A DNA stretch of 53,555 bases from positions 1 through 53,555 of IMG/VR virus record IMGVR_UViG_3300010935_000132. The stretch is one strand, 5' to 3'. How positions within the stretch are numbered: position 1 is the stretch's first letter; each line of letters starts with the position of its first letter. A program made the position numbers and the translations under genes. The notes beneath the pieces are model-generated. The model was not told where the DNA came from. It was given only the letters and a program-made list of their open reading frames with translations, and did not search any database. Shown in pieces: positions 5,831 through 42,703 of this stretch. The stretch is from a virus (taxonomy: Duplodnaviria; Caudoviricetes).

Positions 5831-7432
5831 TTATTTAGTGTTGTTATACACCCACTTAGTAACACCACAGTCATATATTCTATAATATCCTCTTTCATTC
5901 ATTATTTCCTTTTCTGTTTTATTTTCATCATAGCCTTGTCTGACTAGAATATGTTTCATACATTGGCTTCTGCTTAAAGTGTCATCACTATCCTTAGTGT
6001 TGAAATACCTGTATGATGCAGGGCTTACACTATGAAATGTAAATCCTATCTTCTCATAGGTCTTTCCTAATCCATACGCATTATCAGAATATGATAGTAT
6101 AGAAGCGTGTGCATGACTTTTCTTGAAGTGTGATAACATCTTGCTAACACCACCAACAACACTCAATCCAATTTTAGTACAGCTTCTTATAATCTCATAA
6201 TCATAAGATTTATCATACCTTGGTTTTTTGAATGTCATGCACCCAATCAACTCACCATTTAAAAACATACCAACATAATCAGATGACCCACAAAACCCTT
6301 GAATATGATTATCATTAATAAATTTAGAGGCAGTCTTAGAATCAATGTTTATACATGATGTTTTTCTAGCGTATATTCTTTCGCTCATGCCTAACATGTT
6401 CAATAGCCTACCCTTAACAATATCCTTTTTGTTGCTCCACATAGTATCAAAAATAGTAATCAATGTTACACCTTTATCAGCACACATTTGCCACTTCATT
6501 TGATGATATTTCTTATCCCTGTTGGTTTGTTTATTATCAGGTGAATGCCAATAAGAACCGCAAAATTCAATAGCAATCTTTAGTTCAGGTAAAAATATAT
6601 CCAACTCATAAGGTGCGATTAGTTTTCTATCACCACTTCTAATCTTTCCTTTGTAGTTACTCTTTATAAAATTCAATAGACCAAGTTCGGTGCGTGATTT
6701 ACAATACCAAGTTCCTTTTGGTTTAATTATGTTATGCCTTTTCATGAATCCGTCTAGGATTTCTACCGTAACATCTAATAACTCACATGTATGAGTGAAT
6801 GTTAAATTATCTAGCATGTCTTGTAGTTTAGAGGACATACACAAATCGTATGTATATTGACCCTGTTTCTCTATGAACTCTTTATCCAATCTAGCAAGTT
6901 GTTTATCCATATCCTGCATAGATTGACCATACTTTTCTCTTTTTGCAGAAACAATTTTAGAAAACCTAGAAGTCTTTTCTCCTTCCGTCAAAGACTCATG
7001 AAAATCCTTTCTTTTCTTTATAGCGTTTGGGGTTGTTCCATTTTTAAAAGATTCTTTATCTTTAGCCCTACATGAGCAAGAACAATATTCATAATAACCA
7101 TGTGAAATTTGTTTGAATGCTGTATCTTTATCACACACAGCACATACACCTTTTTTATTCCCTAGAGCTAGGTATAGTTCTTCGCCTTCCCATTCTGTTA
7201 TATTCATTCTTTTTAGTAAAGGTTTGTAGGACTTTGGGTAAGTATTATATATTATTATCAACTGTTCTTTTTTTGATAACTGACCATCTACTAATAATAG
7301 GCTATCTAATCGAATATCGGTCATGTCTTTGCCAAACTTATTCTTTATTTTTGTCAAGACTTTTGATGTGGTTAAATTGTATTTGCTTGCTAACTGACCT
7401 AGTGATAGTTTTAGTATGTCATTAATTTCCAT
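5831..7432 (-). CDS. Hef-like free-standing homing endonuclease (Vsr/EDxHD-like nuclease plus C-terminal GNAT-like domain)
   Basis: YELDIFLPELKIAIEFCGSYWHS nuclease motif; IYARKT...NHIQG...VVGGVSKML...SYSDN...YEKIGF...YDCG C-terminal domain; lies next to nrdB. Confidence 0.8.
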   Translation of the reverse strand: MEINDILKLSLGQLASKYNLTTSKVLTKIKNKFGKDMTDIRLDSLLLVDGQLSKKEQLIIIYNTYPKSYKPLLKRMNITEWEGEELYLALGNKKGVCAVCDKDTAFKQISHGYYEYCSCSCRAKDKESFKNGTTPNAIKKRKDFHESLTEGEKTSRFSKIVSAKREKYGQSMQDMDKQLARLDKEFIEKQGQYTYDLCMSSKLQDMLDNLTFTHTCELLDVTVEILDGFMKRHNIIKPKGTWYCKSRTELGLLNFIKSNYKGKIRSGDRKLIAPYELDIFLPELKIAIEFCGSYWHSPDNKQTNRDKKYHQMKWQMCADKGVTLITIFDTMWSNKKDIVKGRLLNMLGMSERIYARKTSCINIDSKTASKFINDNHIQGFCGSSDYVGMFLNGELIGCMTFKKPRYDKSYDYEIIRSCTKIGLSVVGGVSKMLSHFKKSHAHASILSYSDNAYGLGKTYEKIGFTFHSVSPASYRYFNTKDSDDTLSRSQCMKHILVRQGYDENKTEKEIMNERGYYRIYDCGVTKWVYNNTK

Positions 7433-8898: not shown

Positions 8899-9136
8899 TT
8901 CTAACCACCACCTGAAGGATTTTATTACCCAAAATAAGTGTATATGGAACTACAGATTTCTTGGCTAAAATCAACTGCCTTCTGAATCTCCAAAACAATA
9001 TTTCAGCTTCGTATGCATCCTTAGCGTAGCAGGTAACCAAAAGGTTACCTGCCTTGGTTAGTTGTTCGAGATACTCACCGATAAAGGATGAGTCTTCCTC
9101 TTTATAGATTTCGCTTACGCTGAGCATGCAACACAC
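8888..9136 (-). CDS. hypothetical protein
   Basis: ORF overlapping both neighbours inside the nrd operon. Confidence 0.5.
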   Translation of the reverse strand: MCCMLSVSEIYKEEDSSFIGEYLEQLTKAGNLLVTCYAKDAYEAEILFWRFRRQLILAKKSVVPYTLILGNKILQVVVRNEH

Positions 9137-10209
9137 TCTTCATTTTCTACATCTTGTGATGCATAATCTTTTAGGCTATTTCTAACAATAACACCATCAA
9201 CTTTTTCCATCTTGGCAGACTTAGTAGCACGACAGTAGTATAAAGACTTCAATGGAACACCACTACCCTCTTTTGAGAAGGCGTAAAGATGAACTTTATG
9301 CACATAACGTTTTGGTGCGCCTTCAGTAAAGAACAAGTTCACACTTTGCGCTTGACAAATGAACTCTTGACGAATCCTTGCTTGCTCAACAACAAACATC
9401 ATATCAATCTCATTAGCGGTTTTAAAGACTTTCTTCTGATGGTCATCCATCCATTCTAAACCTTGAACAGAACCATCAGCCTTGATAACTTCCATCCATT
9501 GTGCATCAATCCACTCTTGACCAAATACCATTGTGAAAGCGTGTGCTTCAAATGCCTTCTGTAGGTATGGATTCTTGACCACATGTGAACCAACACGCAA
9601 CTTATGCACGTACGCATTAGCTTTGATTGGCTCAATTGATGCTGATGTGTTGCCAATGATAGACGAATTTGCATTAGGTGCAATAGCAAATATCGTAGCA
9701 TTACGCATACCTGTACCAATTAAGTCCTCGGGTTCACCACGTTCTAATGCAAGTTGCTGTGATGCTGCAATACCTTGCTTATTCATGTGGCTGAAAATCT
9801 TGCTAGTCCATTGGCAACCTGAATCAAATCCACCTGATTCAAAAGCAATGTTATTCTTCATGAGGAAGTAATGCCAACCCATACCACCGATACCGATATC
9901 ACGTGACTTGGTAGCAGAATTAACAGCACGCCAAAGTTCTTTAGGTGCATTGTCGATAAACCATGTCAAGACATTATCCAACAAGTAGACGATATCAGCA
10001 ATCATTGTTGTATCTTTCCACAATTCAAACCACTCAATATTAGGTGACGATAAGCAACATACAGCAGTACGCTCTTCATTAATTGGAATAATGATTTCTG
10101 TACAGTTATGAACCACTAGACCGTTGGCGTAAAAGTTATGATTACCTGATACGTTTATATCATAAACGCTTACCTTCTTATTTATTTTCTTTCTTGTTAT
10201 CTTTAACAT
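9115..10209 (-). CDS. nrdA: NrdA C-terminal part fused to a split-intein C fragment
   Basis: 35-aa IntC (VYDINV..NHNFYANGLVVHN) followed by CTEI, AVCCLSS, IGIGGMG, AIAPNANSS, SLYYCR and the C-terminal CVAC redox pair. Confidence 0.95.
   Translation of the reverse strand: MLKITRKKINKKVSVYDINVSGNHNFYANGLVVHNCTEIIIPINEERTAVCCLSSPNIEWFELWKDTTMIADIVYLLDNVLTWFIDNAPKELWRAVNSATKSRDIGIGGMGWHYFLMKNNIAFESGGFDSGCQWTSKIFSHMNKQGIAASQQLALERGEPEDLIGTGMRNATIFAIAPNANSSIIGNTSASIEPIKANAYVHKLRVGSHVVKNPYLQKAFEAHAFTMVFGQEWIDAQWMEVIKADGSVQGLEWMDDHQKKVFKTANEIDMMFVVEQARIRQEFICQAQSVNLFFTEGAPKRYVHKVHLYAFSKEGSGVPLKSLYYCRATKSAKMEKVDGVIVRNSLKDYASQDVENEECVACSA
10105..10209 (-). mobile_element. split intein C fragment (35 aa)
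   Basis: Blocks F/G ending in HN immediately before the +1 Cys; very basic N-terminus (KITRKKINKK). Confidence 0.93.
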
Positions 10210-11099
10210 ATATCTCCATTCTTATGTTTTATATAGTCATTTCTACTTTTTCTGATGTTGTTCTTTTGCCTAATGGAGCGTACATTACCATATTTGTAAT
10301 CAGTACCATTAGTTTGGTTCAATTCATTAACTATGGCGTTTAAAAGGTCTTTCTGAGTACCGCCTTTACAGAAATTGTTACTAACCCACACCATAGACAC
10401 TTTCTTAAACTCCGTAAACTCTAATTTTATTTCCTTTGTAAATATACTCGTTTTAATGTATCCATCTTCTATGGCTCGCTCGGCACATAATAATACACGC
10501 GCTCTCCTTTCTATAGTCATTTCTTTATAGTTACTGTTTCCAGAACCTTTATACTTCTCGCTATATTCTTGCTTTCTTGATTCTGAAAAAGTAGAACCTT
10601 TGGAATGATGTACGTATTCGCCGCTTATAACTCTAGGGTCACTACACAACATTCTACCATAATAAACACCTGTTAAGGCATGTCTAACATTAATCTTACC
10701 TTTATTAATATTAGACATGGATTTTGCTCCAACTTCCCTACAATACTCATAAAATCTTGAGTTTGAACCCCTAAAATTTATGCTTCTTGTATGTTTGTTC
10801 ATCACCTTAGAAAAAAAGAAATTTAATGCTGCTCCATGTTGATAACCATACCGCTTACCATCGTGTATTTTAAAGAGTAAGATATGGGATAATATATGTT
10901 CTCTAGCAGTTAAAAGCACTAAATTTACTTTATCGTCTGGGTCTCCAGGAAGATGTCCTTTTTGACCTTCTCTACTACGCGCATAAAACATAAAATCAGG
11001 TATGATGTGGTGCTTCTCATAATAAACACCACACCCCTTTTTCCTTCCCTCTTGTTTAGCCCTAGTCATTAGTTGTTTATAAATTTTTAAGTAGTTCAT
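10203..11099 (-). CDS. MobE-like HNH homing endonuclease
   Basis: MNYLKIYKQL...EKHHIIP...DDKVNLVLLTAREHILSHILL matches the T4 MobE/I-TevIII-type HNH pattern; sits between the intein halves; TATAAATA late promoter at 11112-11105. Confidence 0.9.
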   Translation of the reverse strand: MNYLKIYKQLMTRAKQEGRKKGCGVYYEKHHIIPDFMFYARSREGQKGHLPGDPDDKVNLVLLTAREHILSHILLFKIHDGKRYGYQHGAALNFFFSKVMNKHTRSINFRGSNSRFYEYCREVGAKSMSNINKGKINVRHALTGVYYGRMLCSDPRVISGEYVHHSKGSTFSESRKQEYSEKYKGSGNSNYKEMTIERRARVLLCAERAIEDGYIKTSIFTKEIKLEFTEFKKVSMVWVSNNFCKGGTQKDLLNAIVNELNQTNGTDYKYGNVRSIRQKNNIRKSRNDYIKHKNGDIC

Positions 11100-11135
11100 A
11101 CTCCTATTTATACAAAATGATAATTTCAGTTCAAA

Positions 11136-12329
11136 CTAACTCACTAGAACGTCTGTACTGACAAGTTCTCCTGCCGCAACATAACCCCTATTTTTTGTTA
11201 AAACTAGATGTTCTGGTGTACATTCAATAACTTTACCATCAAATTCAATAACCATAAGTTCATCTACAATCGCCGTTTCAGCCGAAGCCACAACCAAAGA
11301 AAATTCTTCTTTGTGTGTTTCGGTATTAAATGATTTTACGTAAATTTCGGTGTAATATCCCATGTTGAACATTTCGTTAAATTTATCTAACTCAATAACA
11401 ACTGGATTCGCTCCATCTATAGTTTCACTTATAGTTATTTCAGTATTACCGACCAAGCATATGTTGGATGACTTAACTTCAAGACCCATTGCTTTTAATG
11501 CAGCATTCATCTTGTCGTTTGATTCATCTACATTATGAAGATATGGTTCGCCTGTTCTAAAGCGTGTTTCAAGAATTTCTTGCCATAATTCACGGGCTGA
11601 TGGTATAGTTTCTACAACTTCACCTGTGTCAGGCGCAATCAAATCCCACGACTCATCATTAATACAAGCATCCATAAATGCATATGTGAGATTAACCCCA
11701 ATATTAACATTATGTGCTTTACGGTTAATATCGCCACCAGTAGGGTTACGGATACCAATAAATTCTTGGATATCAGGGTGACTAATATCAAGGTATGATG
11801 CTACAGAACCACGGCGTGTTCCTGCTTGATGATAATACATGATATTAGAATCTTGTGTTTTAGCGTAGGGAATAGCACCAGGAGATTTAGAAGTGATACC
11901 GCGCATACCCAAGTATGAACCTACACCACCACCTGCACATGATAGGTTAGCCAATTCCTTAGCAGCTTCAATCTGACCCTGTAGTGTATCAGGTACAAAT
12001 TGGATGAAACAGCTAATAGGCATGCCTCTAATCTTATCACTATGCATGTATACACCATTTTCCCAAGTTCCCATAACTGAATTACTCAATAGTGGCGATG
12101 CAAAGGACATCCAACCTTGTGAAACATAATCATATAGCCGCTGTGCAAGTTTCATATCACCTGCACAAAAGTTAATAGCTGTTCTTGCGTATGCTTCTTG
12201 TGGTGATTTTTCGTTTTTCTTTAAGTAGTAGCCAACCACAAGTGACTTGCCTACCGTATTTAGATTATCATCCCTAGAATAGTCGATGGTTAATCCGTGA
12301 TATTTCTTAATTGTCAAAATTTTCTCCAT
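11136..12329 (-). CDS. nrdA: NrdA N-terminal part (no ATP cone) fused to a split-intein N fragment
   Basis: SPQEAYAR, FASPLLSN, PISCF, GGGVG, RRGSVASYL, TGEPY and SSNI, then CLVGNTEI (intein block A). Confidence 0.95.
   Translation of the reverse strand: MEKILTIKKYHGLTIDYSRDDNLNTVGKSLVVGYYLKKNEKSPQEAYARTAINFCAGDMKLAQRLYDYVSQGWMSFASPLLSNSVMGTWENGVYMHSDKIRGMPISCFIQFVPDTLQGQIEAAKELANLSCAGGGVGSYLGMRGITSKSPGAIPYAKTQDSNIMYYHQAGTRRGSVASYLDISHPDIQEFIGIRNPTGGDINRKAHNVNIGVNLTYAFMDACINDESWDLIAPDTGEVVETIPSARELWQEILETRFRTGEPYLHNVDESNDKMNAALKAMGLEVKSSNICLVGNTEITISETIDGANPVVIELDKFNEMFNMGYYTEIYVKSFNTETHKEEFSLVVASAETAIVDELMVIEFDGKVIECTPEHLVLTKNRGYVAAGELVSTDVLVS
11139..11459 (-). mobile_element. split intein N fragment (107 aa)
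   Basis: Block A CLVGNTEI and block B IECTPEHLVLTKNRGYV; acidic composition; ends at a stop codon. Confidence 0.93.
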
Positions 12330-33950: not shown

Positions 33951-34520
33951 TTAATTACAACTATTATAATGAAGATAACCACCAATAATATACTTATCAC
34001 CTGATATTGGCATTTCACCTGCATGTGGATACGTCCATGTAGGAGGAAAAATCAGCACACGACCACGCTTAGCTTTAACCTTAACACCATAGTCAGTGAA
34101 TGAAGTTTCGCCACCTTCCTCGACATCATTTAGGTATAGGAAGAAAACAAGGAATCGCCGATTATCATGTAGGTTATTAACATCAACGTGTGGGCTGAAT
34201 TGACCATACCCTGCATCATACTTCTTCATACGAAAATCTTCGAACCTAACTTCATCTGGCCATTGGTATTCTTTAACACCACAATCATCACAGTATTGTT
34301 TTATGACCTCGATGAATTTATTCACTACCGCATCTCTCACATCATCAAATGCATCGTTAAGTGTTGTATCAACCACACGAAAAAAACGGTGACCTTCTAC
34401 AATATCAAGTTCTGATTTAGCTGATTCGAATAGACTGATTAGTAATCCACAGTCATCTTCCGAAAACACATCATCGTAAACCTTTACATATGGGATATTC
34501 ATATTCATCATCCTATTCAA
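33951..34520 (-). CDS. 2OG-Fe(II) oxygenase (prolyl-4-hydroxylase-like)
   Basis: HVD...LYLNDVEEGGET.F...FPPTWTYPH.G...KYI. Confidence 0.9.
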   Translation of the reverse strand: MNRMMNMNIPYVKVYDDVFSEDDCGLLISLFESAKSELDIVEGHRFFRVVDTTLNDAFDDVRDAVVNKFIEVIKQYCDDCGVKEYQWPDEVRFEDFRMKKYDAGYGQFSPHVDVNNLHDNRRFLVFFLYLNDVEEGGETSFTDYGVKVKAKRGRVLIFPPTWTYPHAGEMPISGDKYIIGGYLHYNSCN

Positions 34521-37095
34521 ACATACTTTCTAGTGTTGCAACTTTCTCCGATTTCCAACCAACCGCACTAAGCATTGCTTCCATTGGGTCAAGAAAGGTT
34601 TTCTGATACATAGTAGGATAATCAATACAGCTATCCAAGTCAAACACTTTAGGTAAATCAAGATGTGATGGGAATCCAACCACCTCATACTTGATATGAT
34701 TTGGTAACCGCAAATCAACAAATTTAATCTTATCAGCATCAACAATTGGTTTACTATCACTAAGACCATATTCTTCAATCAAGTGGTTGTACATTAGAGC
34801 AGCTTTAACCTGCTTAGGCGCACCTTTAGCATGTATGGTTGATGAACCCTTATACTTTTGAATGTTATTAACACCACGTGGATATGCGATGGATTCAACA
34901 GGTAGGGTCTTAAACTCTTTCTTGAATAGTGCGATGTAATCTATAACGGTTTGTTCATCAGTGGTTAGCATTAGGCGTACAGCTTCTTTAAGCACCTCTC
35001 GACACTTCTTAGGTGTTGATGATTTAACGATTTCAAGACCCATGATTTTAAGCTTAGGTTCAGTGTATCGAACACCTTCGGAATCATGCACCAACATAGC
35101 ATAACGCTTCTTAGCAGTCCAAAAACTCTTAGAAGTGATATTCTCACGACTCATGTTCATCTTTTGCTCTCTAGCGTTCATGATATCAGCTAACTCTTGA
35201 TACCAAATATTAAGTTTCTTCTGTATGATATCAGCAAAGAACTTGTCAAGGAAATTAACCCTATCTTCGGTAGTTCCTTTATCAGGATTAGGAAATACTT
35301 TAGCTACGATACCTTCCATATTAACGTACACTGAATCGGTGTCAATTGCTACAATATAATCAACTCCAACAGTACCTAAAGCCTTATTGATAAATTTGTT
35401 AATCTTGTTCTCAATCCATCTAATAGATAACTGACCCGATGTTGTAATAGCAGTAGCAATACGGATATCATAGAATTGGAATGATGATTGACCGATTGCC
35501 CCGTAACCACTATTCAAAAGTACCTTAATACCCTTTTGCGCATTATCACCTGTTGAAATCTTCTGTTCTAAATCATGTATAACTTTAGGGTCATTATTAC
35601 CTGCTTTTTCATTAACCAAAAGCTGCTCATTATGAAGCATCTCTTTCTTAATAGTTTTTCGTGTGGCATACAACATCTTCATCAGGCTAGAGAAGAATGA
35701 CTCTACTTCGCGTCTAAACAACTCACCATTTGCAGTAACACAAAGGTCTTTGTCAACTAATGATGAGGTGTCTATTGTCTTATCAATAATAGCATCAATA
35801 TTCTTATTGAAGTCACCTGAAAATTGGTCTTGAATTGGCTCTTTACGCTCATGAATAGTGTCTGGACCTAGATTATATTGAAAAATAAGATGTGGATATA
35901 GACCATCCAAATCTAATGATGAAACCCAATTATACATGTTTCCAATCGTAGGCTCTTTGACGTAACCACCAGGATACTGTTCTTTCTCTTTTGGTGAACC
36001 TTTTACTTCGGCTTGCTGACCACGTTCACGCAAGAAGTGGAATATTAAAGCTTCCCAGGTCTTAACAGGTGAAAAGGTATCGTTGTATGGCTGTTTACAG
36101 TGATAGGAAAGGTATAGAACCAAATCCATTAGGCTCATTTTCTCATCAAGTTCTTTGACCAATCGAACATCATGTATATTGTAATCACAGAATCTTGAGT
36201 GGTCTTTTACATATAAGTCTTTAATCGTACCCAAATCAGAATAATCAAGCTTCTGTGACCCTAACTCAAAGTTTGAAATGAAGTCTAGACTATATGACTC
36301 TTTTCCTGTATAGGTATACTTCTTATAGAGCATCATATAGTCAAGGATTGATACACCTACAATATCCCAGTTGACGACAACATTCTTAAAGTTGTCTAGT
36401 GTTTCTCTAGACTTAAGCTTACCCCATGGAGATAGGTAGTTTGCTGCGTCTTGACCCAATACAGCACGGATACGATTAATGATGAATGGAATATCAAACC
36501 CTTCGATGTTCCAACCTGTTACCACATGTGGCATATTAGTGTGCCAATACTTCAACACGCTTGATAGTAGGTGCTTCTCATCCCTACAGTTATGTACAAT
36601 TACTTCAGGGTCATCCGAAGAGTATTCTTCTCTAAAAGCCCAAATATGGTACTTCTGTTCAAATGAATCATGTATGGTGAATGTAACAATTGGATGTGTT
36701 GCTTCGTGTGGGTCAGGAAACCCAGTGAGCGTCAAAGAAATAGTCTCAATATCAAAATTGAATACTCTAATCTTGCTCATATCATATTTTAATTCTTGGT
36801 CATACTCACGTGAAATAAACTGAGTAATCCAATTTGAATTACCGTATACTTTGTATCCTTCAACACCTTTATATTGGTCGATATGTTGCTTAGCATCATA
36901 GATGGTATCAAAATTCTTAGTCTGTAATGGTTGACCCTCTAGGGTAGCATACTGTCCATCTACAACTTCTCTTGCAGGTACATACAATTCAGGCTGAAAC
37001 TTAACCTTTCGGTTGACGTGACTAATACCATCAAATTCTCTTACTAAAAGTGTGTTGCCTTGTCTATCTATATTTGTGAAAAATCGCGTCATCAA
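34513..37095 (-). CDS. 43: family B DNA polymerase
   Basis: FDIET, GWNIEGFDIP and YNIHD exonuclease motifs; DLDGLYPH, KVLLNSGYG, DTDS and KKRYA. Confidence 0.98.
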   Translation of the reverse strand: MMTRFFTNIDRQGNTLLVREFDGISHVNRKVKFQPELYVPAREVVDGQYATLEGQPLQTKNFDTIYDAKQHIDQYKGVEGYKVYGNSNWITQFISREYDQELKYDMSKIRVFNFDIETISLTLTGFPDPHEATHPIVTFTIHDSFEQKYHIWAFREEYSSDDPEVIVHNCRDEKHLLSSVLKYWHTNMPHVVTGWNIEGFDIPFIINRIRAVLGQDAANYLSPWGKLKSRETLDNFKNVVVNWDIVGVSILDYMMLYKKYTYTGKESYSLDFISNFELGSQKLDYSDLGTIKDLYVKDHSRFCDYNIHDVRLVKELDEKMSLMDLVLYLSYHCKQPYNDTFSPVKTWEALIFHFLRERGQQAEVKGSPKEKEQYPGGYVKEPTIGNMYNWVSSLDLDGLYPHLIFQYNLGPDTIHERKEPIQDQFSGDFNKNIDAIIDKTIDTSSLVDKDLCVTANGELFRREVESFFSSLMKMLYATRKTIKKEMLHNEQLLVNEKAGNNDPKVIHDLEQKISTGDNAQKGIKVLLNSGYGAIGQSSFQFYDIRIATAITTSGQLSIRWIENKINKFINKALGTVGVDYIVAIDTDSVYVNMEGIVAKVFPNPDKGTTEDRVNFLDKFFADIIQKKLNIWYQELADIMNAREQKMNMSRENITSKSFWTAKKRYAMLVHDSEGVRYTEPKLKIMGLEIVKSSTPKKCREVLKEAVRLMLTTDEQTVIDYIALFKKEFKTLPVESIAYPRGVNNIQKYKGSSTIHAKGAPKQVKAALMYNHLIEEYGLSDSKPIVDADKIKFVDLRLPNHIKYEVVGFPSHLDLPKVFDLDSCIDYPTMYQKTFLDPMEAMLSAVGWKSEKVATLESMFE

Positions 37096-37141
37096 GCCCT
37101 CTTGTGTTGTTTATGGGTGTGTTGTGTATATTTGATTGGAA

Positions 37142-37170
37142 AAGCTGCTAGCATCAAACGCTAGCAGCTT
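37142..37170 (-). terminator. hairpin upstream of gene 43 (terminator or operator)
   Basis: aagctgctagc-N7-gctagcagctt, followed by a short T run on the minus strand. Confidence 0.6.
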
Positions 37171-37179
37171 ATGATGGTA

Positions 37180-37944
37180 TTAATACTTATTTAATTCTCC
37201 GCGCTTAGCTTTGAACTTGTGTAGTTCGACCCAAGCGGTTAATTGACGCTTGATATCTTCCTTACATTCTCTCATTAGAGTAGCCACAATTAATGATGTA
37301 GGAAATCCATCAATAGTACCTAAAGATTGTCGTGTAATCATCTTATCCTTAACATGTTTGAAAAAGATATTATGGCTTAGGATGTCTGCAATCGGTCCAG
37401 AATATTTTACAGGTGAAATACCACATGTGTAGACTGAACTAACAGTGGTACATTGTGCCATATAATGCTTAGCAAACTTAACACCCATATTATTATCTGA
37501 TGGTCGACGAATAACCCTTGGTGAAGGTAGTTTGGCATCGTCAAATAAATGTAGATAACCGCGATTAAGGATATGATGCACCAACTGATGAAACATAACC
37601 CTCGTTCGAATACCATCAAACGTCAATCGGTACAATGTACCAAGTTTGTTACATGGCTGTGATTCATAACCATCTTTGTCGATGATTTGACATCTTTGAA
37701 GGTCATAGTTGATATCATCAGGTAAAACAATAATATCAGATACAGGATTGGCTGATAAGACTGACAATATGTATCGAACATCATAAGTCTTTTTACGACC
37801 TGCTTTAGGTGTAGATAATCTGATTGTTCCACTCTTGGTTAAACTCATAGGAGTCATATTTCGAATTGATACAATCTCACCTTTAACTAGAGTGTAGTTT
37901 TTCTTTATTATTGTGTACTCTTCTAATGAGTCAATTATATTCAT
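37180..37944 (-). CDS. hypothetical basic protein
   Basis: 254-aa ORF in the operon; no recognised motif. Confidence 0.7.
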   Translation of the reverse strand: MNIIDSLEEYTIIKKNYTLVKGEIVSIRNMTPMSLTKSGTIRLSTPKAGRKKTYDVRYILSVLSANPVSDIIVLPDDINYDLQRCQIIDKDGYESQPCNKLGTLYRLTFDGIRTRVMFHQLVHHILNRGYLHLFDDAKLPSPRVIRRPSDNNMGVKFAKHYMAQCTTVSSVYTCGISPVKYSGPIADILSHNIFFKHVKDKMITRQSLGTIDGFPTSLIVATLMRECKEDIKRQLTAWVELHKFKAKRGELNKY

Positions 37945-37954
37945 TTGACTTATG

Positions 37955-38479
37955 CTACTCCATCATTAACAATGCGTCAACATTTTTGTACAACTTATCT
38001 AATGAGCCATCATTAAGGATAAGTTCATCTGTATGATGTGTAATGATTCCTGATTCAGAACTATGAACATTTACAAGTTCTTGGTTAGGTCTTATGATGT
38101 GAACAATAGTGCCACCATTATCACGAATCCAATCAGCTTCATTATCGAAACGAACATCACTGATGACATTATTTGCTTCGAAGTTCAAGCCTCTAGATAG
38201 TCGCTTAATCCAAAAGTCTTCACCAAATACATCACGTGTACTTTCTGTACCAAATTTCTGAAGCAACTGACGAACCGTAGCATCATATTCAGGAACAATA
38301 CGTGTGTCCTTTTCGTCATCGTAACACCATGCAACAGGAATACCAAAATAGATTGCTGCAGACTGTTTAAGTGCATCAGCAAAGGCAAATTTCAAATACC
38401 CACTTCTATTCATTTTATCAGCTAAGGTATCCTTACCACTACGCGCCAAACCTGTTAATCCATATAATTTCTTAGTCAT
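37955..38479 (-). CDS. 1: deoxynucleoside monophosphate kinase
   Basis: GLTGLARSGKDT, FADALK, RQLLQKFGTE, ISDVRFDNE and HSSE; likely start MTKKLY (ATGA overlap). Confidence 0.92.
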   Translation of the reverse strand: MTKKLYGLTGLARSGKDTLADKMNRSGYLKFAFADALKQSAAIYFGIPVAWCYDDEKDTRIVPEYDATVRQLLQKFGTESTRDVFGEDFWIKRLSRGLNFEANNVISDVRFDNEADWIRDNGGTIVHIIRPNQELVNVHSSESGIITHHTDELILNDGSLDKLYKNVDALLMME

Positions 38480-39144
38480 TTTATCGCCATCCATCCACAA
38501 AAATTATGATTTTGCCAAAATTGAAAACACTTGGAAAATCCACACTGTCTAATATAACCATTTTCACCAACCAAATCATCTAGGATGTTAGGTCGCATTA
38601 TCTCACGTAAAGAATACTCTTTGTCTAAAATATCACTGTCAGAAAAACTCTTCCGTTTGAAGTCATAATGTATTGATGAAATTATACTCTGTGTTCTAGC
38701 ATCATCAATGAAAACTTTCTCTGAAAATACGAATACACCACCAGGATTTAATCCATCATATATCTTGCGTACAAGATTTATTCTATCTATAGTGTTCATA
38801 AATTGTAAAGTGAATATAGAACTAATAAATGATGCATGACTCCAATCATCATAAGCGCAGGCATCACCCTTATAGAAATCAACATTAAGTGAGTTATGAA
38901 GGTCTTTTGTGAAATTTTCTTCTATCTCTATACCAACATAACTCACATTAGTCTTACTATTACTATCTTTCAACCTATGAAGCATTTTTCCTGTTGAACA
39001 TCCAATATCAATAACCTTACTATGGTCTTCAATAAAGAATCTAGAAATATCACAAACATCATCAATTAATGATGAATAGCCGCGAATAGACTTGTCGATA
39101 TGACTATCAAAATTTTCCACTGTTGAAAACGAAAAATCACTCAT
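38476..39144 (-). CDS. cmoA: CmoA-like protein (carboxy-S-adenosylmethionine synthase family)
   Basis: FDSHIDKSIRGY, DIGCSTG, FTLQF, KIYDGLNPGG.F.FSEK, DFKR and WQNHNF align along the whole length with E. coli CmoA. Confidence 0.85.
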   Translation of the reverse strand: MSDFSFSTVENFDSHIDKSIRGYSSLIDDVCDISRFFIEDHSKVIDIGCSTGKMLHRLKDSNSKTNVSYVGIEIEENFTKDLHNSLNVDFYKGDACAYDDWSHASFISSIFTLQFMNTIDRINLVRKIYDGLNPGGVFVFSEKVFIDDARTQSIISSIHYDFKRKSFSDSDILDKEYSLREIMRPNILDDLVGENGYIRQCGFSKCFQFWQNHNFCGWMAIK

Positions 39145-40327
39145 TAATAGATAACTCCTTATAAGGCTTTATTATAGTATTATATAATTGTGTTGATATC
39201 GCCTTATACATTTTTGGTGCAACCATACGACCAATTCTCTCAGCTTGTTGGTTGAACTTTCCAGTTAGAACTAGGTCATCAGGTAACCCCTGAATCCTCT
39301 TCAACTCATCAATGGAAAATTTTCTATCTTCATCATAATGTACCGTACCTGCTACGCTAGTCTGTACACCTCTTTGTGTTAATGTTGGGCATGGTAGAAA
39401 TGGGCTACTTCTAGTTAGGTTAAAGTAAGAGCCTTTTGGATGAACATCAGCACCACTACCTATAGATATTTGATTTTTTGGTATGAGTGAAGTCCATCTT
39501 AGTAATTCACCAGTAACACCTAACATACTACGCTCTTCGTCTGTAACAACAATATCATCAATTGCATTACAAAGAGGAACAAATGTACTATTATTCCAAC
39601 CGATAGGAAATACCTCATTAGCTAATGAGAAATCATCAATATCTAAGACTTCAGCCACATCGTCACGAACACAAACAAAAATTAATCTTTCCCTTCTTTG
39701 AGGTGTTCCATAATGCTGAGCAAATAATGTCTTAGCAGTTACAATATAACCACAAGATTTCAAAGACATTATTATTTCGTTGAATTTCTTCTTAGACTTC
39801 CCAAGTAATAATCCTGGTACATTTTCAGCTATGATAATTTTAGGCTTTAGCCCTTCAGCAATACGAACATATTCAAAGAATAAGTCTTCAATGTTAGTTA
39901 CTGTTTTTCCATCAGAATACTTCTTTTCTTTACCCCAACCATCACTACCCTTCCCACATACAGAAAAGGCTGAACATGGTGGACTACCATCCAATATATC
40001 CAACTCGCCTACTTCCATACCAGAAGATTTTAGAAAGTCTTCTGGAGTGAAACTCTTTATATCACCATGTAATACTGTGGTGTCTTTAAAGTTTTCTAGG
40101 TAAGTGGCTACAGCCTCATCAACAAACTCATTAACTGTTCGTATATCACCACCACCTAGCTTATACCCAATAGAAGAACCACCACCACCAGCAAAGGTAG
40201 ATATAACGGTAAATAGCTTTCTATCTGCTGATGCATTAACATCAGATAGTGTATATGGCTCATAAGGCATAAAATTATACTTATGAGCCATATGTTCTAA
40301 GTTCTGTTCGTATGTTAAAGCACTCAT
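39137..40327 (-). CDS. C5 DNA cytosine methyltransferase family protein with a motif-X Arg (candidate carboxymethyltransferase)
   Basis: Motif I FAGGGG, IV GSPPCSAFS, VI ENV, VIII QRRER, IX R.QGLPD and X IGRMV. Confidence 0.93.
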   Translation of the reverse strand: MSALTYEQNLEHMAHKYNFMPYEPYTLSDVNASADRKLFTVISTFAGGGGSSIGYKLGGGDIRTVNEFVDEAVATYLENFKDTTVLHGDIKSFTPEDFLKSSGMEVGELDILDGSPPCSAFSVCGKGSDGWGKEKKYSDGKTVTNIEDLFFEYVRIAEGLKPKIIIAENVPGLLLGKSKKKFNEIIMSLKSCGYIVTAKTLFAQHYGTPQRRERLIFVCVRDDVAEVLDIDDFSLANEVFPIGWNNSTFVPLCNAIDDIVVTDEERSMLGVTGELLRWTSLIPKNQISIGSGADVHPKGSYFNLTRSSPFLPCPTLTQRGVQTSVAGTVHYDEDRKFSIDELKRIQGLPDDLVLTGKFNQQAERIGRMVAPKMYKAISTQLYNTIIKPYKELSINE

Positions 40328-40863
40328 GGTTTAATACCACCCAAATCAACAAACTCTACAATGTAGCCATGTTCTGAGGTGAACATGTTTTCAGACCCAC
40401 GAATAATAGGCAAAAACTTATTGATATAAGCCACAGTTTCACTATTAATACTAACATCACCTTTAAATTCATCGTGGAAGACAGTTAAATGGACGCAAGA
40501 ACACTCTTTAATGAACTCATCATACATTGTGCCGCCACCAATAAGAAAAACCTTGCTACGTGGCTCTACGTGCTCCTTAAGAGCATCTATTGATGTGATG
40601 ATGTGGTTATTATCGCCTACCATACCTTTAACGTTGTCAACATGCCGTGTAAGCACGATATTTTTACGGTTTGGTAGTGGTCTATATTGAGGTGGTAATG
40701 AATCCCATGTAGCGCGACCCATCAAAACGGTATGACCTTCTGTAAGGTTTTTAAATCGTTTCATATCTGCAGGTTCATGCTTCCATGGTAAGGCACTACC
40801 GTTTCCGATAGTGTGGCTTAAATCCATAGCTAGAATTGCTCTGAAATCATACTCGGAAAACAT
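40324..40863 (-). CDS. frd: dihydrofolate reductase
   Basis: IGNGSALPW, MGRATWDSLP..RPLPNRKN and LIGGG. Confidence 0.95.
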   Translation of the reverse strand: MFSEYDFRAILAMDLSHTIGNGSALPWKHEPADMKRFKNLTEGHTVLMGRATWDSLPPQYRPLPNRKNIVLTRHVDNVKGMVGDNNHIITSIDALKEHVEPRSKVFLIGGGTMYDEFIKECSCVHLTVFHDEFKGDVSINSETVAYINKFLPIIRGSENMFTSEHGYIVEFVDLGGIKP

Positions 40864-41393
40864 TATAGTTTACCCGTAGAGCCAAATCCACCAGTACGAT
40901 TTCCATCATTGGTTGGTGCTTCATCAATGAATCCAATAGGTGAACGTTTAACAGTAACCAATTCACCTTGACAGATTCGTTCACCATCTTTGATGACAAT
41001 ACTAGACTCAGAAATATTCACCAACATAACAAATGTTTCTGCTACATAATCTGAATCAATCACACCTTCACCATTTGCCAACATCAAGCCTTGCTTAAGT
41101 GCAATACCCGAACGCATATGCAGGCGTAAAGATTGACCTTCAGGAACATCAAAAATGATACCTGTAGGAACAAGAACGCGCTGCTTTGGTGAGATAATAA
41201 TAGACTTGCTTTTATCACTATCAACTCGAACAGAATTAGACTCTTTTCTGTTATATCCACTATAAGCTAAAACAGAATCCTTGTGTTCTAGGCATGCTCT
41301 AATATCAAAGCATGCGGCTTCATCAGTTGCATAATTAGGCAATTCAACTGATTCGTGTAGTGGGTGTACACCCAAACCTTGGTTCATATTCAT
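40863..41393 (-). CDS. dut: trimeric dUTPase
   Basis: AACFDI, RSG, GVIDSDY, RICQ and RTGGFGSTG; start inferred. Confidence 0.95.
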   Translation of the reverse strand: MNMNQGLGVHPLHESVELPNYATDEAACFDIRACLEHKDSVLAYSGYNRKESNSVRVDSDKSKSIIISPKQRVLVPTGIIFDVPEGQSLRLHMRSGIALKQGLMLANGEGVIDSDYVAETFVMLVNISESSIVIKDGERICQGELVTVKRSPIGFIDEAPTNDGNRTGGFGSTGKL

Positions 41394-41398
41394 TATTA

Positions 41399-41800
41399 TT
41401 ATACCTTTACTTTCGGAAATAGCTGCCAATCTTGCTTCAAGGCATACTTTAATACAAATACACGCGGGCGGTTTACATGGTCAAACGGAATAGGGTCTAC
41501 AGCTTCTAGTAGATTCCAAGTCTGAAGCATGTCAATAATACAATTACGACGTTCTTCATCTTCGATACCAAAATCAGACTCTTTACCTTCCATCAAGAAT
41601 ATTTCTTTGAAATGCACCACATAATACAGACCATTTTCTTCGATGATGTGGCAAGACTGCCAAAGCTTATGCTCTTTTACATTAACGACACCCATACGTG
41701 TTAGTGTTTCTTGGACTCGGCGGTAGAAATCAGGATTTTTAAGTTTTACCTGAATGCGTTTTTCTTCTGTCCATTCTTCAACTCTATTATCTTCGCTCAT
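41399..41800 (-). CDS. regA: translational repressor RegA
   Basis: PDF..VQETLTRMG...LWQSCHI...YYVVHFKE. Confidence 0.95.
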   Translation of the reverse strand: MSEDNRVEEWTEEKRIQVKLKNPDFYRRVQETLTRMGVVNVKEHKLWQSCHIIEENGLYYVVHFKEIFLMEGKESDFGIEDEERRNCIIDMLQTWNLLEAVDPIPFDHVNRPRVFVLKYALKQDWQLFPKVKV

Positions 41801-41852
41801 TTTAACTTACTTCCTTGTAATTATTTACTTCATTTTCTCTATGATATCAACA

Positions 41853-42251
41853 TTATTCTATAATGCAATAACTAATAATATCACTATTAACGTCAAACTT
41901 TAGTGCTATTATTTTGAACTCGTTGTTTTCGCGTGCAAGCATGTATCCAATTGAAAATATATTAGCTATAACTCCATGGTAATATAAAAACTCAAATGGA
42001 ACACGTGCACGCTTCATAACAACTTGAGTACATATATCAGAAATATCAAATGTTGCATTCTTATAATCAATATCTTTTTCGTACCTAACAGGAAGTGGAA
42101 TCGGTCTTTTAAAGTAATGCATAAATACAGGACTAGGTGCTTCTATAACCTCACACCCTAATATCGCACCAATCTCTTCATAGGTTGGTGGTCTAAACAG
42201 ACCACGCCCAATTCCAATGTTTGGTGGATGATAATAATAATCATCACTCAT
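41853..42251 (-). CDS. hypothetical protein inserted between gene 62 and regA
   Basis: ATGA overlap with gene 62. Confidence 0.6.
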   Translation of the reverse strand: MSDDYYYHPPNIGIGRGLFRPPTYEEIGAILGCEVIEAPSPVFMHYFKRPIPLPVRYEKDIDYKNATFDISDICTQVVMKRARVPFEFLYYHGVIANIFSIGYMLARENNEFKIIALKFDVNSDIISYCIIE

Positions 42252-42703
42252 TTTGTTCTTCCACCTATATCACAATCTGCTCTGATGTCAATCATATCAT
42301 CATCATCTAACAATGCAACATATTGTTCTGCTACACGCTCATTAACCTGATAATATTCCATCATTAGTAGTACATCTTCTTCTTTCTTATTAGCCTTAGC
42401 CCAAGGATTGAATTGTTTACCTTTTCTTACGCCATGAATATAGAAATCATACACCATTTGTTTAGATGTATTTGGAAATCTGTTCATTTCATTGGCATAG
42501 AAAATCGTACCCATACCCATAGAAAAGAACTTGTTGATAATGTATGATGAAAAATCCTTGTGGGCTTCATCATCCATTCTTAATATGTTCTTTTTGTCTA
42601 TGGTCAAATCAGGGATGAAGTCACCAAATAGAGTAAGCTTCTTGCGCTTATAATCCTCTTCAGGCTCTAGTTCGGTGACTTCTTCACCAAAGACATTCAT
42701 CAC
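42248..42703 (-). CDS. 62: clamp loader small subunit
   Basis: YIINK.FS...YANEMN...YDFY...RK.KQFNPWAK; synteny. Confidence 0.92.
   Translation of the reverse strand: MMNVFGEEVTELEPEEDYKRKKLTLFGDFIPDLTIDKKNILRMDDEAHKDFSSYIINKFFSMGMGTIFYANEMNRFPNTSKQMVYDFYIHGVRKGKQFNPWAKANKKEEDVLLMMEYYQVNERVAEQYVALLDDDDMIDIRADCDIGGRTK

What the first reader, a model, noticed from the sequence alone, without database searches (positions are those of the whole stretch)
38476..40327. Predicted DNA carboxymethylation module: C5-MTase with a motif-X Arg coupled to a CmoA-like carboxy-SAM synthase
Seen: a C5 cytosine methyltransferase overlaps a full-length CmoA homologue by 8 bp. Both sit in a tightly coupled dut-frd-MTase-cmoA-dNMP kinase run. 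Motif X reads IGRMV (Arg367, codon 39229-39227) where C5-MTases normally have GN(A/S)V. Established: CmoA makes carboxy-SAM from SAM and prephenate, and replacing this motif-X Asn with a basic residue (M.MpeI N374K) makes the enzyme transfer a carboxymethyl group to cytosine. Inference: the phage makes its own CxSAM and writes 5-carboxymethylcytosine into its DNA, probably against restriction. I recall a related pair being reported in a cyanophage, so the chemistry may not be wholly new. Here no amidating or hypermodifying partner is visible nearby, and the host looks proteobacterial. Caveat: the position matching E. coli CmoA Arg199 (QKRSML) reads DKEYSLR, so the Arg is shifted or replaced.
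Basis: partly seen in the sequence, partly recalled or inferred. Interest (0 to 1): 0.9.

Follow-up and report, generated by a model that had tools for sequence, protein, structure and literature searches.

The report
Phage DNA carboxymethylation gene pair (CmoX–CmoA)

Summary
A 396-aa C5-MTase homologue (39137-40327, minus) overlaps a 222-aa CmoA homologue (38476-39144, minus) by 8 nt. Both sit in a dut-frd-MTase-cmoA-dNMP kinase run, and motif X reads IGRMV (Arg367, codon 39229-39227).

Synechococcus phage S-B43 CmoX uses CmoA-made Cx-SAM to form 5cxmC. A ligase, CmoY, then adds glycine.

- **CmoX match:** the window enzyme hits the CmoX crystal structure 8YF3 at E 2e-101. Arg367 aligns with Arg350 of CmoX and Asn304 of M.HhaI.
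- **CmoA caveat resolved:** the window CmoA is 42-45% identical to the assayed SpCmoA. Glu replaces E. coli Arg199, with Arg four residues later. SpCmoA shows the same swap, as do 72 of 72 CmoX-linked CmoAs.
- **Family context:** of 80 IMG/VR CmoX loci, 80 have SPPC and GRMV, 77 have cmoA, and 55 have a CmoY homologue.
- **No ligase seen:** the window has no ligase, CmoB or ParB. However, the record is about 30% complete, and one relative keeps its ligase 16 kb away.

Verdict: a new, divergent, possibly ligase-less member of a known kind. The host is undetermined.

The parts
39137..40327 (-). cmoX: DNA cytosine-C5 carboxymethyltransferase homologue, 396 aa
   Evidence: PF00145 at E 4e-48. PDB 8YF3 (S-B43 CmoX) at E 2.1e-101 over residues 24-386. 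48% identity to SpCmoX and 47% to the S-CRM01 homologue.
39227..39229 (-). Arg367 codon (cgt) in motif X (IGRMV), the predicted carboxylate-binding residue
   Evidence: Read directly from the sequence. It aligns with Arg350 of 8YF3 and Asn304 of M.HhaI. The paper shows that Arg350 contacts the Cx-SAM carboxymethyl group.
39974..39976 (-). Cys118 codon of the SPPC motif (motif IV nucleophile)
   Evidence: GSPPCS aligns with S95-P96-P97-C98 of SpCmoX. The codon position was computed from the ORF start.
38476..39144 (-). cmoA: carboxy-SAM synthase homologue, 222 aa
   Evidence: TIGR00740 at E 3.3e-32, 112.1 bits. PDB 1IM8 at E 2.5e-26 and 4GEK at E 1.1e-22. 45% identity (MAFFT) or 42% (tblastn) to the assayed SpCmoA.
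38605..38619 (-). Codons for Glu176...Arg180 (KEYSLR). Glu sits at the E. coli Arg199 position and Arg at the Glu203 position.
   Evidence: Alignment with E. coli CmoA. The same E/R pair occurs in SpCmoA, in S-CRM01, in L003, and in 72 of 72 CmoX-linked CmoAs that cover the site.
39137..39144 (-). 8-nt overlap ATGAGTGA between the cmoX stop and the cmoA start, consistent with translational coupling
40324..40863 (-). frd (dihydrofolate reductase), ATGA overlap with cmoX
   Evidence: PF00186 at E 9e-35. Overlap seen.
40863..41429 (-). dut (dUTPase); start codon uncertain
   Evidence: PF00692 at E 9e-18. NF001862 scores 116 bits, above its cut-off.
37955..38500 (-). dNMP kinase. The likely start is the ATG at 38479, giving an ATGA overlap with cmoA.
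   Evidence: PF21448 at E 1.4e-25. Sequence read.
37180..37944 (-). orf254, a neighbour of unknown function. It is not shown to belong to the module.
   Evidence: No Pfam or PHROG family. 41% identical to the syntenic ORF in L003. Absent from the other 79 CmoX loci. Only sub-threshold likeness to HNH/NUMOD4 proteins.

Best explanation
The two overlapping genes are the phage CmoX-CmoA system.

CmoA converts host SAM and prephenate into carboxy-SAM. CmoX is a C5-cytosine methyltransferase fold in which Arg367 replaces the motif-X Asn. Cys118 attacks C6 of a flipped-out cytosine in duplex phage DNA. The carboxymethyl group of Cx-SAM is then transferred to C5, giving 5-carboxymethylcytosine. This base shields the DNA from restriction enzymes.

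The pair is translated as a coupled unit within the early nucleotide-metabolism and replication operon of a T4-like phage.

Shown here: homology, conserved residues, gene linkage, and conservation in a sister phage. Taken from the published homologues: the activities themselves. Inferred only: because no CmoY-type ligase is present in the 53.5 kb available, unamidated 5cxmC is the more likely end product (about even odds). The target sequence may be GC, as in S-B43, but this is not established.
For: - **CmoX homology:** 8YF3 (SpCmoX) is the top PDB hit at E 2.1e-101. The next hit, M.HaeIII, is at 1.8e-17.
- **Conserved residues:** every residue the paper names is kept: F25/E47/F48/D69/C98/R350 in SpCmoX correspond to F45/E67/F68/D89/C118/R367 in the window. 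ENV Glu168 and the motif VIII residues Arg212/Arg214 are also kept.
- **Published activity:** wild-type SpCmoX accepts only Cx-SAM, R350N is inactive, SpCmoA makes Cx-SAM at kcat 2.33 s-1, and 5cxmC blocks HhaI.
- **CmoA homology:** the window CmoA scores 112.1 bits on TIGR00740, and the assayed SpCmoA scores 115.6. Both share the KE..LR signature.
- **Arg tracks cmoA:** of 80 IMG/VR CmoX loci, 80 have SPPC and GRMV and 77 have cmoA. The 3 without cmoA have at most 1.1 kb of sequence downstream. Of 35 related MTase loci with Asn (9) or Met (26) at that position, 0 have cmoA in the fetched stretch. Phage Melnitz has Leu there and is not among the organisms listed for the 70 isolate records that match the window CmoA.
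- **Sister contig L003** keeps both genes intact in the same order (X 76%, A 66%, polymerase 86%).
- **No tRNA-pathway or ligase partner:** the window has no CmoB, so no tRNA use is apparent. It has no PF00733 match and no SpCmoY homologue.
- **A ligase-free precedent:** the complete S-CRM01 genome also has cmoA-cmoX but no PF00733 match, while the S-B43 control was found.
Against: - No biochemistry exists for these two proteins. Identity to the assayed enzymes is under 50%.
- The cmoA product falls below NCBIfam's equivalog cut-off (112 vs 193.3 bits), and it lacks Arg199 and Asn132 of E. coli CmoA. The active SpCmoA shares all three features.
- The first half of the target-recognition region is poorly conserved against SpCmoX, so GC specificity cannot be transferred.
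- The record is about 30% complete. In G001, the record holding L068 (157.6 kb, 90% complete), a true CmoY homologue (53% identity, E 8e-74) lies 16 kb from cmoX. A distal ligase therefore cannot be excluded here.
- The genome also avoids GGCC (4 observed, 35 expected). That would be unnecessary if every GC were protected.
Confidence: 0.85

Rival explanations
1. Same CmoX-CmoA chemistry, but 5cxmC is only an intermediate. A CmoY-type or other amide ligase, encoded in the missing ~70% of the genome, converts it to an amide such as 5-glycylcarboxymethylcytosine.
For: 55 of 80 related CmoX loci carry an SpCmoY homologue. In G001, the ligase lies 16 kb from cmoX, just after the DNA polymerase gene. 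The window record is about 30% complete. In S-B43 virion DNA only the glycine amide was detected, not free 5cxmC.
Against: Neither PF00733 nor an SpCmoY homologue occurs anywhere in the window, which extends 38 kb on one side of the module and 13 kb on the other and includes the region after the polymerase gene. In the 55 ligase-bearing loci the ligase lies within 1.8 kb of cmoX or cmoA, although the flanks were capped at 10 kb. Sister contig L003 has none in its 11 kb. The complete S-CRM01 genome has none. On the quick tree the ligase label needs at least 11 changes, and several clades lack it entirely.
Confidence: 0.4
2. The MTase is an ordinary 5-methylcytosine writer. The CmoA homologue serves something else, such as host tRNA cmo5U supply or another methyl transfer.
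For: Both proteins hit generic methyltransferase families (PF00145, Methyltransf_25 and others). The cmoA product is below the NCBIfam equivalog cut-off.
Against: Arg367 occupies the Asn304 position. SpCmoX, with the same Arg, uses only Cx-SAM and not SAM. There is no CmoB in the window. Arg at this position co-occurs with cmoA in 77 of 80 loci, and cmoA occurs in 0 of 35 Asn/Met loci.
Confidence: 0.05
3. The main benefit of CmoA is to deplete host SAM as an anti-defence measure, in the way SAM lyases do, with DNA marking secondary. This is not exclusive of the best explanation.
For: Yang et al. raise this as an open question in their Discussion. SpCmoA turns over about 10 times faster than E. 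coli CmoA.
Against: The tight coupling and near-obligate pairing with an Arg-type CmoX (77 of 80 loci) argue that Cx-SAM supply is the selected function. No data here bear on SAM pools.
Confidence: 0.1

Closest known systems
CmoX/CmoA/CmoY of Synechococcus phage S-B43 (Yang et al., Nat Commun 2025; PDB 8YF3)
   Same: Same two enzymes. CmoX is 47-48% identical, with SPPC, Arg350 and all named Cx-SAM contacts kept. CmoA is 42-45% identical, with the same Glu/Arg swap. Both phages are T4-like, and the genes sit in the replication and nucleotide-metabolism region.
   Different: Gene order is cmoX then cmoA, with an 8-nt overlap, rather than cmoA-cmoY-cmoX. No CmoY ligase is present in the 53.5 kb. 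The first half of the target-recognition region is divergent. The DNA polymerase is only ~41% identical to those of cyanophages.
cmoA-cmoX pair of Synechococcus phage S-CRM01 (annotated only as methyltransferases)
   Same: An adjacent pair with no ligase between the two genes. The complete 178.6 kb genome has no PF00733 match. The pair sits between the gp44/gp62 clamp-loader genes and regA/gp43, the same genome module as here.
   Different: Order is cmoA then cmoX. The host is a freshwater cyanobacterium. I found no experimental work on it: the name is absent from the main text of Yang et al..
Engineered M.MpeI N374K and M.CviPI carboxymethyltransferases (Kohli laboratory)
   Same: A basic residue at the motif-X Asn position lets a C5-MTase use Cx-SAM to make 5cxmC (passages read in PMC13288465, and in the Discussion of PMC12783734).
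   Different: Those are laboratory mutants of methyltransferases, carry Lys, and have CpG or GpC specificity. The window enzyme is natural and carries Arg. M.MpeI (4DKJ) aligned only over residues 108-226, so motif X was not compared directly.
E. coli CmoA/CmoB tRNA cmo5U pathway
   Same: CmoA fold and SAM-binding residues: Y39, D62, G64, S66, D117 and F137 are kept as Y23, D46, G48, S50, D94 and F115.
   Different: 30% identity. Arg199, which forms the salt bridge to the Cx-SAM carboxylate, is Glu here, and the Arg has moved four residues later. Asn132 is Ile. There is no CmoB, and the acceptor is DNA rather than tRNA.
C5-MTase homologue of Methylophilales phage Melnitz (annotated hhaIM)
   Same: 41% identical. 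It shares the C-terminal tail (..KPYKE..) and lies next to the DNA polymerase gene. The locus has the same 36% G+C and, like the window, no GATC.
   Different: Motif X reads GLMV, with Leu rather than Arg. Methylophilales phages are not among the organisms listed for the 70 records that match the window CmoA. It is presumably not a Cx-SAM enzyme.

Membership tests
CmoX (DNA cytosine C5-carboxymethyltransferase; Yang et al. 2025) | SPPC motif (S95 P96 P97 C98) | tested here: met
   S115 P116 P117 C118 align with it.
CmoX (DNA cytosine C5-carboxymethyltransferase; Yang et al. 2025) | Arg at the position of SpCmoX Arg350 / M.HhaI Asn304, which binds the carboxymethyl group | tested here: met
   Arg367 aligns with Arg350 of 8YF3 and with Asn304 of M.HhaI.
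CmoX (DNA cytosine C5-carboxymethyltransferase; Yang et al. 2025) | Cx-SAM adenine and ribose contacts Phe25, Glu47, Phe48 and Asp69 | tested here: met
   F45, E67, F68 and D89 are invariant in the alignments.
CmoX (DNA cytosine C5-carboxymethyltransferase; Yang et al. 2025) | Conserved active-site Glu and Arg that contact cytosine N4 and O2 | tested here: met
   ENV Glu168 and motif VIII Arg212/Arg214 are present. The text I read does not number these residues, so which residues are meant is my inference.
CmoX (DNA cytosine C5-carboxymethyltransferase; Yang et al. 2025) | Genomic association with a phage cmoA | tested here: met
   The two genes overlap by 8 nt. The same pairing occurs in 77 of 80 related loci.
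CmoX (DNA cytosine C5-carboxymethyltransferase; Yang et al. 2025) | Transfers carboxymethyl from Cx-SAM and not methyl from SAM; GC target motif | not testable with these tools
   Needs an enzyme assay or LC-MS. The target-recognition region is conserved only in its second half.
CmoA (carboxy-SAM synthase) | NCBIfam TIGR00740 equivalog cut-off (193.3 bits) | tested here: not met
   The window protein scores 112.1 bits. The biochemically active SpCmoA also fails, at 115.6 bits, and the PaBG homologue scores 130.5 bits. The E. coli control scores 455 bits. The cut-off therefore defines bacterial CmoA, not the activity.
CmoA (carboxy-SAM synthase) | SAM-moiety contacts of E. coli CmoA (Tyr39, Asp62, Gly64, Ser66, Asp89, Asp117, Asn132, Phe137; Byrne et al. 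2013) | tested here: inconclusive
   Y23, D46, G48, S50, D94 and F115 are kept. Asp89 becomes Glu73 and Asn132 becomes Ile. The active SpCmoA makes the same or similar substitutions.
CmoA (carboxy-SAM synthase) | Arg199 salt bridge to the Cx-SAM carboxylate | tested here: not met
   The aligned residue is Glu176, and Arg180 sits at the E. coli Glu203 position. The arrangement is identical in the active SpCmoA and in 72 of 72 CmoX-linked CmoAs. The PaBG CmoA keeps the bacterial Arg and Glu.
CmoA (carboxy-SAM synthase) | Makes Cx-SAM from SAM and prephenate | not testable with these tools
   Shown for SpCmoA, which is 42-45% identical.
CmoY (ATP-dependent 5cxmC amide ligase, Asn-synthetase-like) | A PF00733-type ORF on the same contig | tested here: not met
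   No PF00733 match at E<=1 and no SpCmoY homologue at E<=10 in the window. The positive control in S-B43 was found.
Canonical C5 DNA methyltransferase (5mC writer) | Motif X Gly-Asn next to the SAM methyl group | tested here: not met
   The window has Gly-Arg where M.HhaI has GNSV and M.HaeIII has GNAV. The PF00145 domain itself is present.

The most novel reading that the evidence does not exclude
This rare lineage (the window plus L003) has no amide ligase at all, so its virion DNA carries free, negatively charged 5-carboxymethylcytosine as the final mark. In S-B43 only the glycine amide was detected. In addition, the Arg199-to-Glu and Glu203-to-Arg swap, shared by all CmoX-linked CmoAs examined, may loosen the grip on the product. 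That would turn a tRNA-pathway enzyme that holds its product tightly into a high-turnover Cx-SAM supplier for genome-wide marking.
Probability: 0.4. Interest if true: 0.5.

Novelty: new member of a known kind. Interest (0 to 1): 0.3.

Why it matters
The locus independently confirms that the motif-X Arg together with a linked cmoA is a reliable sequence signature of natural DNA carboxymethylation. It extends that signature to a deep-branching, uncultured T4-like lineage that also avoids restriction sites heavily.

Practical value is modest:
- It offers a diverged natural CmoX whose target-recognition region differs in part from the only characterised enzyme. That could supply a different sequence specificity for 5cxmC-based sequencing chemistry.
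- It is a candidate for testing whether free 5cxmC, without amidation, occurs in nature.
- It points to the Glu/Arg swap in phage CmoA as a simple mutational test of why the phage enzyme is about 10 times faster than the E. coli enzyme.

Tried and rejected
- **Close relatives.** Megablast of the five-gene run against 50,697 phage records found nothing. A metagenome-contig scan with the window CmoX gave 67 loci, the best at 39% identity, so no further close relatives. L003 (76%) was the only one found.
- **orf254 (37180-37944) as a hidden hypermodifier.** It has no Pfam or PHROG family. It is present in 1 of 80 CmoX loci, L003 only. The Atlas gave only sub-threshold HNH/NUMOD4 likeness, from a model with pLDDT 0.42. 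No support.
- **2OG-Fe(II) oxygenase (33951-34520) as a partner.** A homologue lies in 8 of 80 CmoX loci, some with and some without a CmoY homologue. No specific link.
- **The weak Mom hit of the 533-aa ORF 5831-7432.** It scored 20.4 bits, under the 27.1 cut-off. PHROGs calls it a homing endonuclease at E 1.5e-99. Rejected.
- **Promoter and terminator scan of 36900-42400.** 29 promoter-like sites against 25.9 expected, and no minus-strand terminator. Uninformative.
- **'Ligase always adjacent'.** I first read this from a maximum distance of 1.8 kb in 55 loci. I withdrew it after finding the ligase 16 kb from cmoX in G001.
- **Tree.** The careful tree search did not finish, so only the quick IQ-TREE result is used. 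No rows were dropped: 80 loci plus 5 added sequences.
- **Steps not run.** I ran no structure prediction, fold search or complex prediction. With 48% identity to a crystal structure the fold is not in question, and the tools return no side-chain contacts. I did not use the search for homologous proteins or the search of protein representatives, because the IMG/VR scans already answered the question.
- **Supplements.** They may list this contig and CmoA residue comparisons.
Full report
**Observation**

The window is a whole IMG/VR virus record of 53,555 bases, estimated to be about 30% complete.

ORF listing confirms a 396-aa ORF at 39137-40327(-) and a 222-aa ORF at 38476-39144(-).
- The two ORFs overlap by the 8 nt ATGAGTGA, with an AAGGAG 10 nt upstream of the second ATG.
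- Upstream lie dut (40863-41429) and frd (40324-40863), with an ATGA overlap between frd and the MTase.
- Downstream lies a dNMP kinase, with an ATGA overlap if it starts at the ATG at 38479.

The rest of the window is the replication and recombination module of a T4-like myovirus. It holds topoisomerase II subunits, nrdA/B, primase, gp41-like helicase, UvsX, UvsY, Dda-like helicase, RdgC, DNA ligase, gp43 polymerase, RegA, gp62/44/45 and UvsW. Baseplate genes sit at the right end.

**What it is**

I read the outline, all of the Results, the Discussion, and searched passages.

In Synechococcus phage S-B43:
- CmoA makes Cx-SAM from SAM and prephenate, with kcat 2.33 s-1 against 0.23 s-1 for E. 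coli CmoA.
- CmoX, a C5-MTase homologue, transfers the carboxymethyl group to cytosine in GC motifs of dsDNA.
- The crystal structure (8YF3) shows Arg350 contacting the carboxymethyl group where M.HhaI has Asn304.
- The wild-type enzyme uses only Cx-SAM, and R350N is dead.
- An Asn-synthetase-like ligase, CmoY, then adds glycine.
- Virion DNA contained the glycine amide and no free 5cxmC.
- A survey of IMG/VR v4, UniProtKB and MGnify found 5,615 CmoX candidates (SPPC plus Arg350), 4,257 CmoA and 2,251 ligases.

A full-text search for CmoX, 5cxmC, carboxymethyltransferase and carboxy-SAM from 2024 onwards found no other paper on the natural system. A 2026 paper confirms the engineered M.MpeI N374K precedent.

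**Tests on the MTase**

- The best solved-structure match is 8YF3 at E 2.1e-101 over residues 24-386. The next is M.HaeIII at 1.8e-17.
- Counting along the printed alignments, Arg367 aligns with Arg350 of 8YF3 and Asn304 of M.HhaI.
- SPPC (115-118) and the named cofactor contacts (F45, E67, F68, D89) are invariant in alignments with the S-B43 and S-CRM01 enzymes, at 48% and 47% identity.
- M.MpeI aligned only over residues 108-226, so its motif X was not compared directly.

**Tests on the CmoA homologue**

- It matches H. influenzae and E. coli CmoA structures at E 2.5e-26 and 1.1e-22.
- It is 45% (MAFFT) or 42% (tblastn) identical to SpCmoA.
- It fails the NCBIfam equivalog cut-off (112.1 vs 193.3 bits). 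So does the assayed SpCmoA, at 115.6 bits, while E. coli CmoA scores 455.
Arg199 of E. coli CmoA forms a 2.7 A salt bridge to the cofactor carboxylate (Byrne et al. 2013, PMC3663124; passages read). It aligns with Glu176 here, and an Arg (Arg180) sits at the E. coli Glu203 position.
- The same swap is present in the active SpCmoA, in S-CRM01, in L003, and in 72 of the 72 CmoX-linked CmoAs that cover the site. Those came from 77 detected; 5 are cut by contig ends.
- Pseudomonas phage PaBG, which also has an Arg-type MTase, a CmoA and an annotated asparagine synthase, keeps the bacterial Arg/Glu arrangement.
- The swap is therefore a clade signature and not a defect. The main text of Yang et al. 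does not mention Arg199; the supplements could not be seen.
- That the moved Arg still reaches the carboxylate, perhaps more loosely, is my inference.

**Linkage across relatives**

- A pattern scan of IMG/VR with a four-sequence CmoX alignment found at least 487 relatives, and the best 80 were kept.
- All 80 have SPPC and G-R-M-V. 77 have cmoA, and the 3 without it have at most 1.1 kb of sequence downstream. 55 have an SpCmoX-linked SpCmoY homologue.
- The window's arrangement, cmoX directly followed by cmoA with no ligase detected, is seen in 22 of the 80.
- In contrast, 35 more distant MTase loci (L004-L038) have Asn (9) or Met (26) at the Arg position, and none has cmoA in the fetched stretch. 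Many of these contigs are short.
- Only one close relative exists in the collections searched. L003 (11 kb) has the same order regA-dut-frd-cmoX-cmoA-dNMP kinase-orf254-like...pol, at 76% (X), 66% (A) and 86% (pol) identity.
- On a quick, unfinished ML tree, the window and L003 form a long, fully supported branch of their own.

**End product**

- The window has no PF00733 match, no SpCmoY homologue, no CmoB and no ParB-N domain.
- The complete genome of S-CRM01 likewise has cmoA-cmoX and no PF00733 match, while the S-B43 control was detected.
- However, 25 loci 'without ligase' is an upper bound. In the 157.6 kb, 90% complete record behind L068, a clear CmoY homologue (53% identity, E 8e-74) lies 16 kb from cmoX, just after the polymerase gene.
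- With about 70% of this genome unseen, I put roughly even odds on free 5cxmC being the final mark.

**Host and specificity**

- The DNA polymerase is 41% identical to the best cyanophage polymerases, 39.5% to that of Melnitz and 38% to that of S-CRM01. The lineage has no cultured relative, and the host cannot be named.
- The window contains no GATC at all (208 expected). It is also depleted in CCAG/CTGG, GGCC and CCGG.
- L003 and the Melnitz locus also lack GATC, while the two cyanophage loci do not. This hints weakly at a non-cyanobacterial host but does not show a proteobacterial one.
- If GC were the target, about 20% of cytosines would lie in that context. The first half of the target-recognition region differs from SpCmoX, so the motif remains open.

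**Verdict**

The system is a known kind, described in December 2025 and surveyed at scale. This locus is a new, divergent and possibly ligase-less member.

Noticed in passing
window 9115-12329 (-): nrdA is split into three ORFs. The first (11136-12329) is the N-extein, ending ..SSNI, followed by an N-intein starting CLVGNTEI. The second (10203-11099) is a free-standing homing endonuclease (phrog_655). The third (9115-10209) is a 35-aa C-intein ending VVHN, followed by a C-extein starting CTEI. This is the 'fractured gene' split-intein layout that I recall from Dassa et al. 2009; that paper was not read here.
   Followed up: partly
whole window; also L003 and L122: Extreme restriction-site avoidance: GATC 0 observed against 208 expected, CCAG/CTGG 68 against 222, GGCC 4 against 35, CCGG 0 against 13, GTTAAC 0 against 14.5, GAATTC 0 against 12.6. 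L003 has 0 GATC against 41 expected, and the Melnitz locus 0 against 37. The cyanophage loci L001 and L002 show no such avoidance.
   Followed up: partly
L007-L020, L025-L026, L028-L037 (IMG/VR); L122:4001-5218: A large set of phage C5-MTase homologues carries Met (GMSV, 26 loci) at the motif-X Asn position, and Melnitz carries Leu (GLMV). No cmoA lies nearby. Which cofactor they use is unknown.
   Followed up: no
L041-L044 and similar loci (for example L044:11134-12300): In 17 of 80 CmoX loci (14 with order Y-X-A, 3 with order X-A), a gene of about 1.1 kb sits between cmoX and cmoA. I did not identify it.
   Followed up: no
G001:C1:68324-68785 (L123:1822-2631): In a 90%-complete T4-like record, the CmoY ligase homologue is detached from cmoX-cmoA by 16 kb and follows the DNA polymerase gene.
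   Followed up: yes
window 5831-7432 (-) and 37180-37944 (-): A 533-aa homing endonuclease (phrog_3339, E 1.5e-99) lies beside nrdB. A fast-evolving 254-aa ORF between the dNMP kinase and polymerase genes has only sub-threshold HNH/NUMOD4 likeness.
   Followed up: partly
L121 (Staphylococcus phage vB-SscS-F1) 3486-6004: A cmoA - 271-aa hypothetical - C5-MTase trio in which the MTase has Gly (VGGVI) at the motif-X Asn/Arg position. Its CmoA reads DKQRSIR, with Gln at the E. coli Arg199 position and Arg at the two positions corresponding to E. coli residues 200 and 203. This is a different solution from both E. coli and the cyanophage clade.
   Followed up: no
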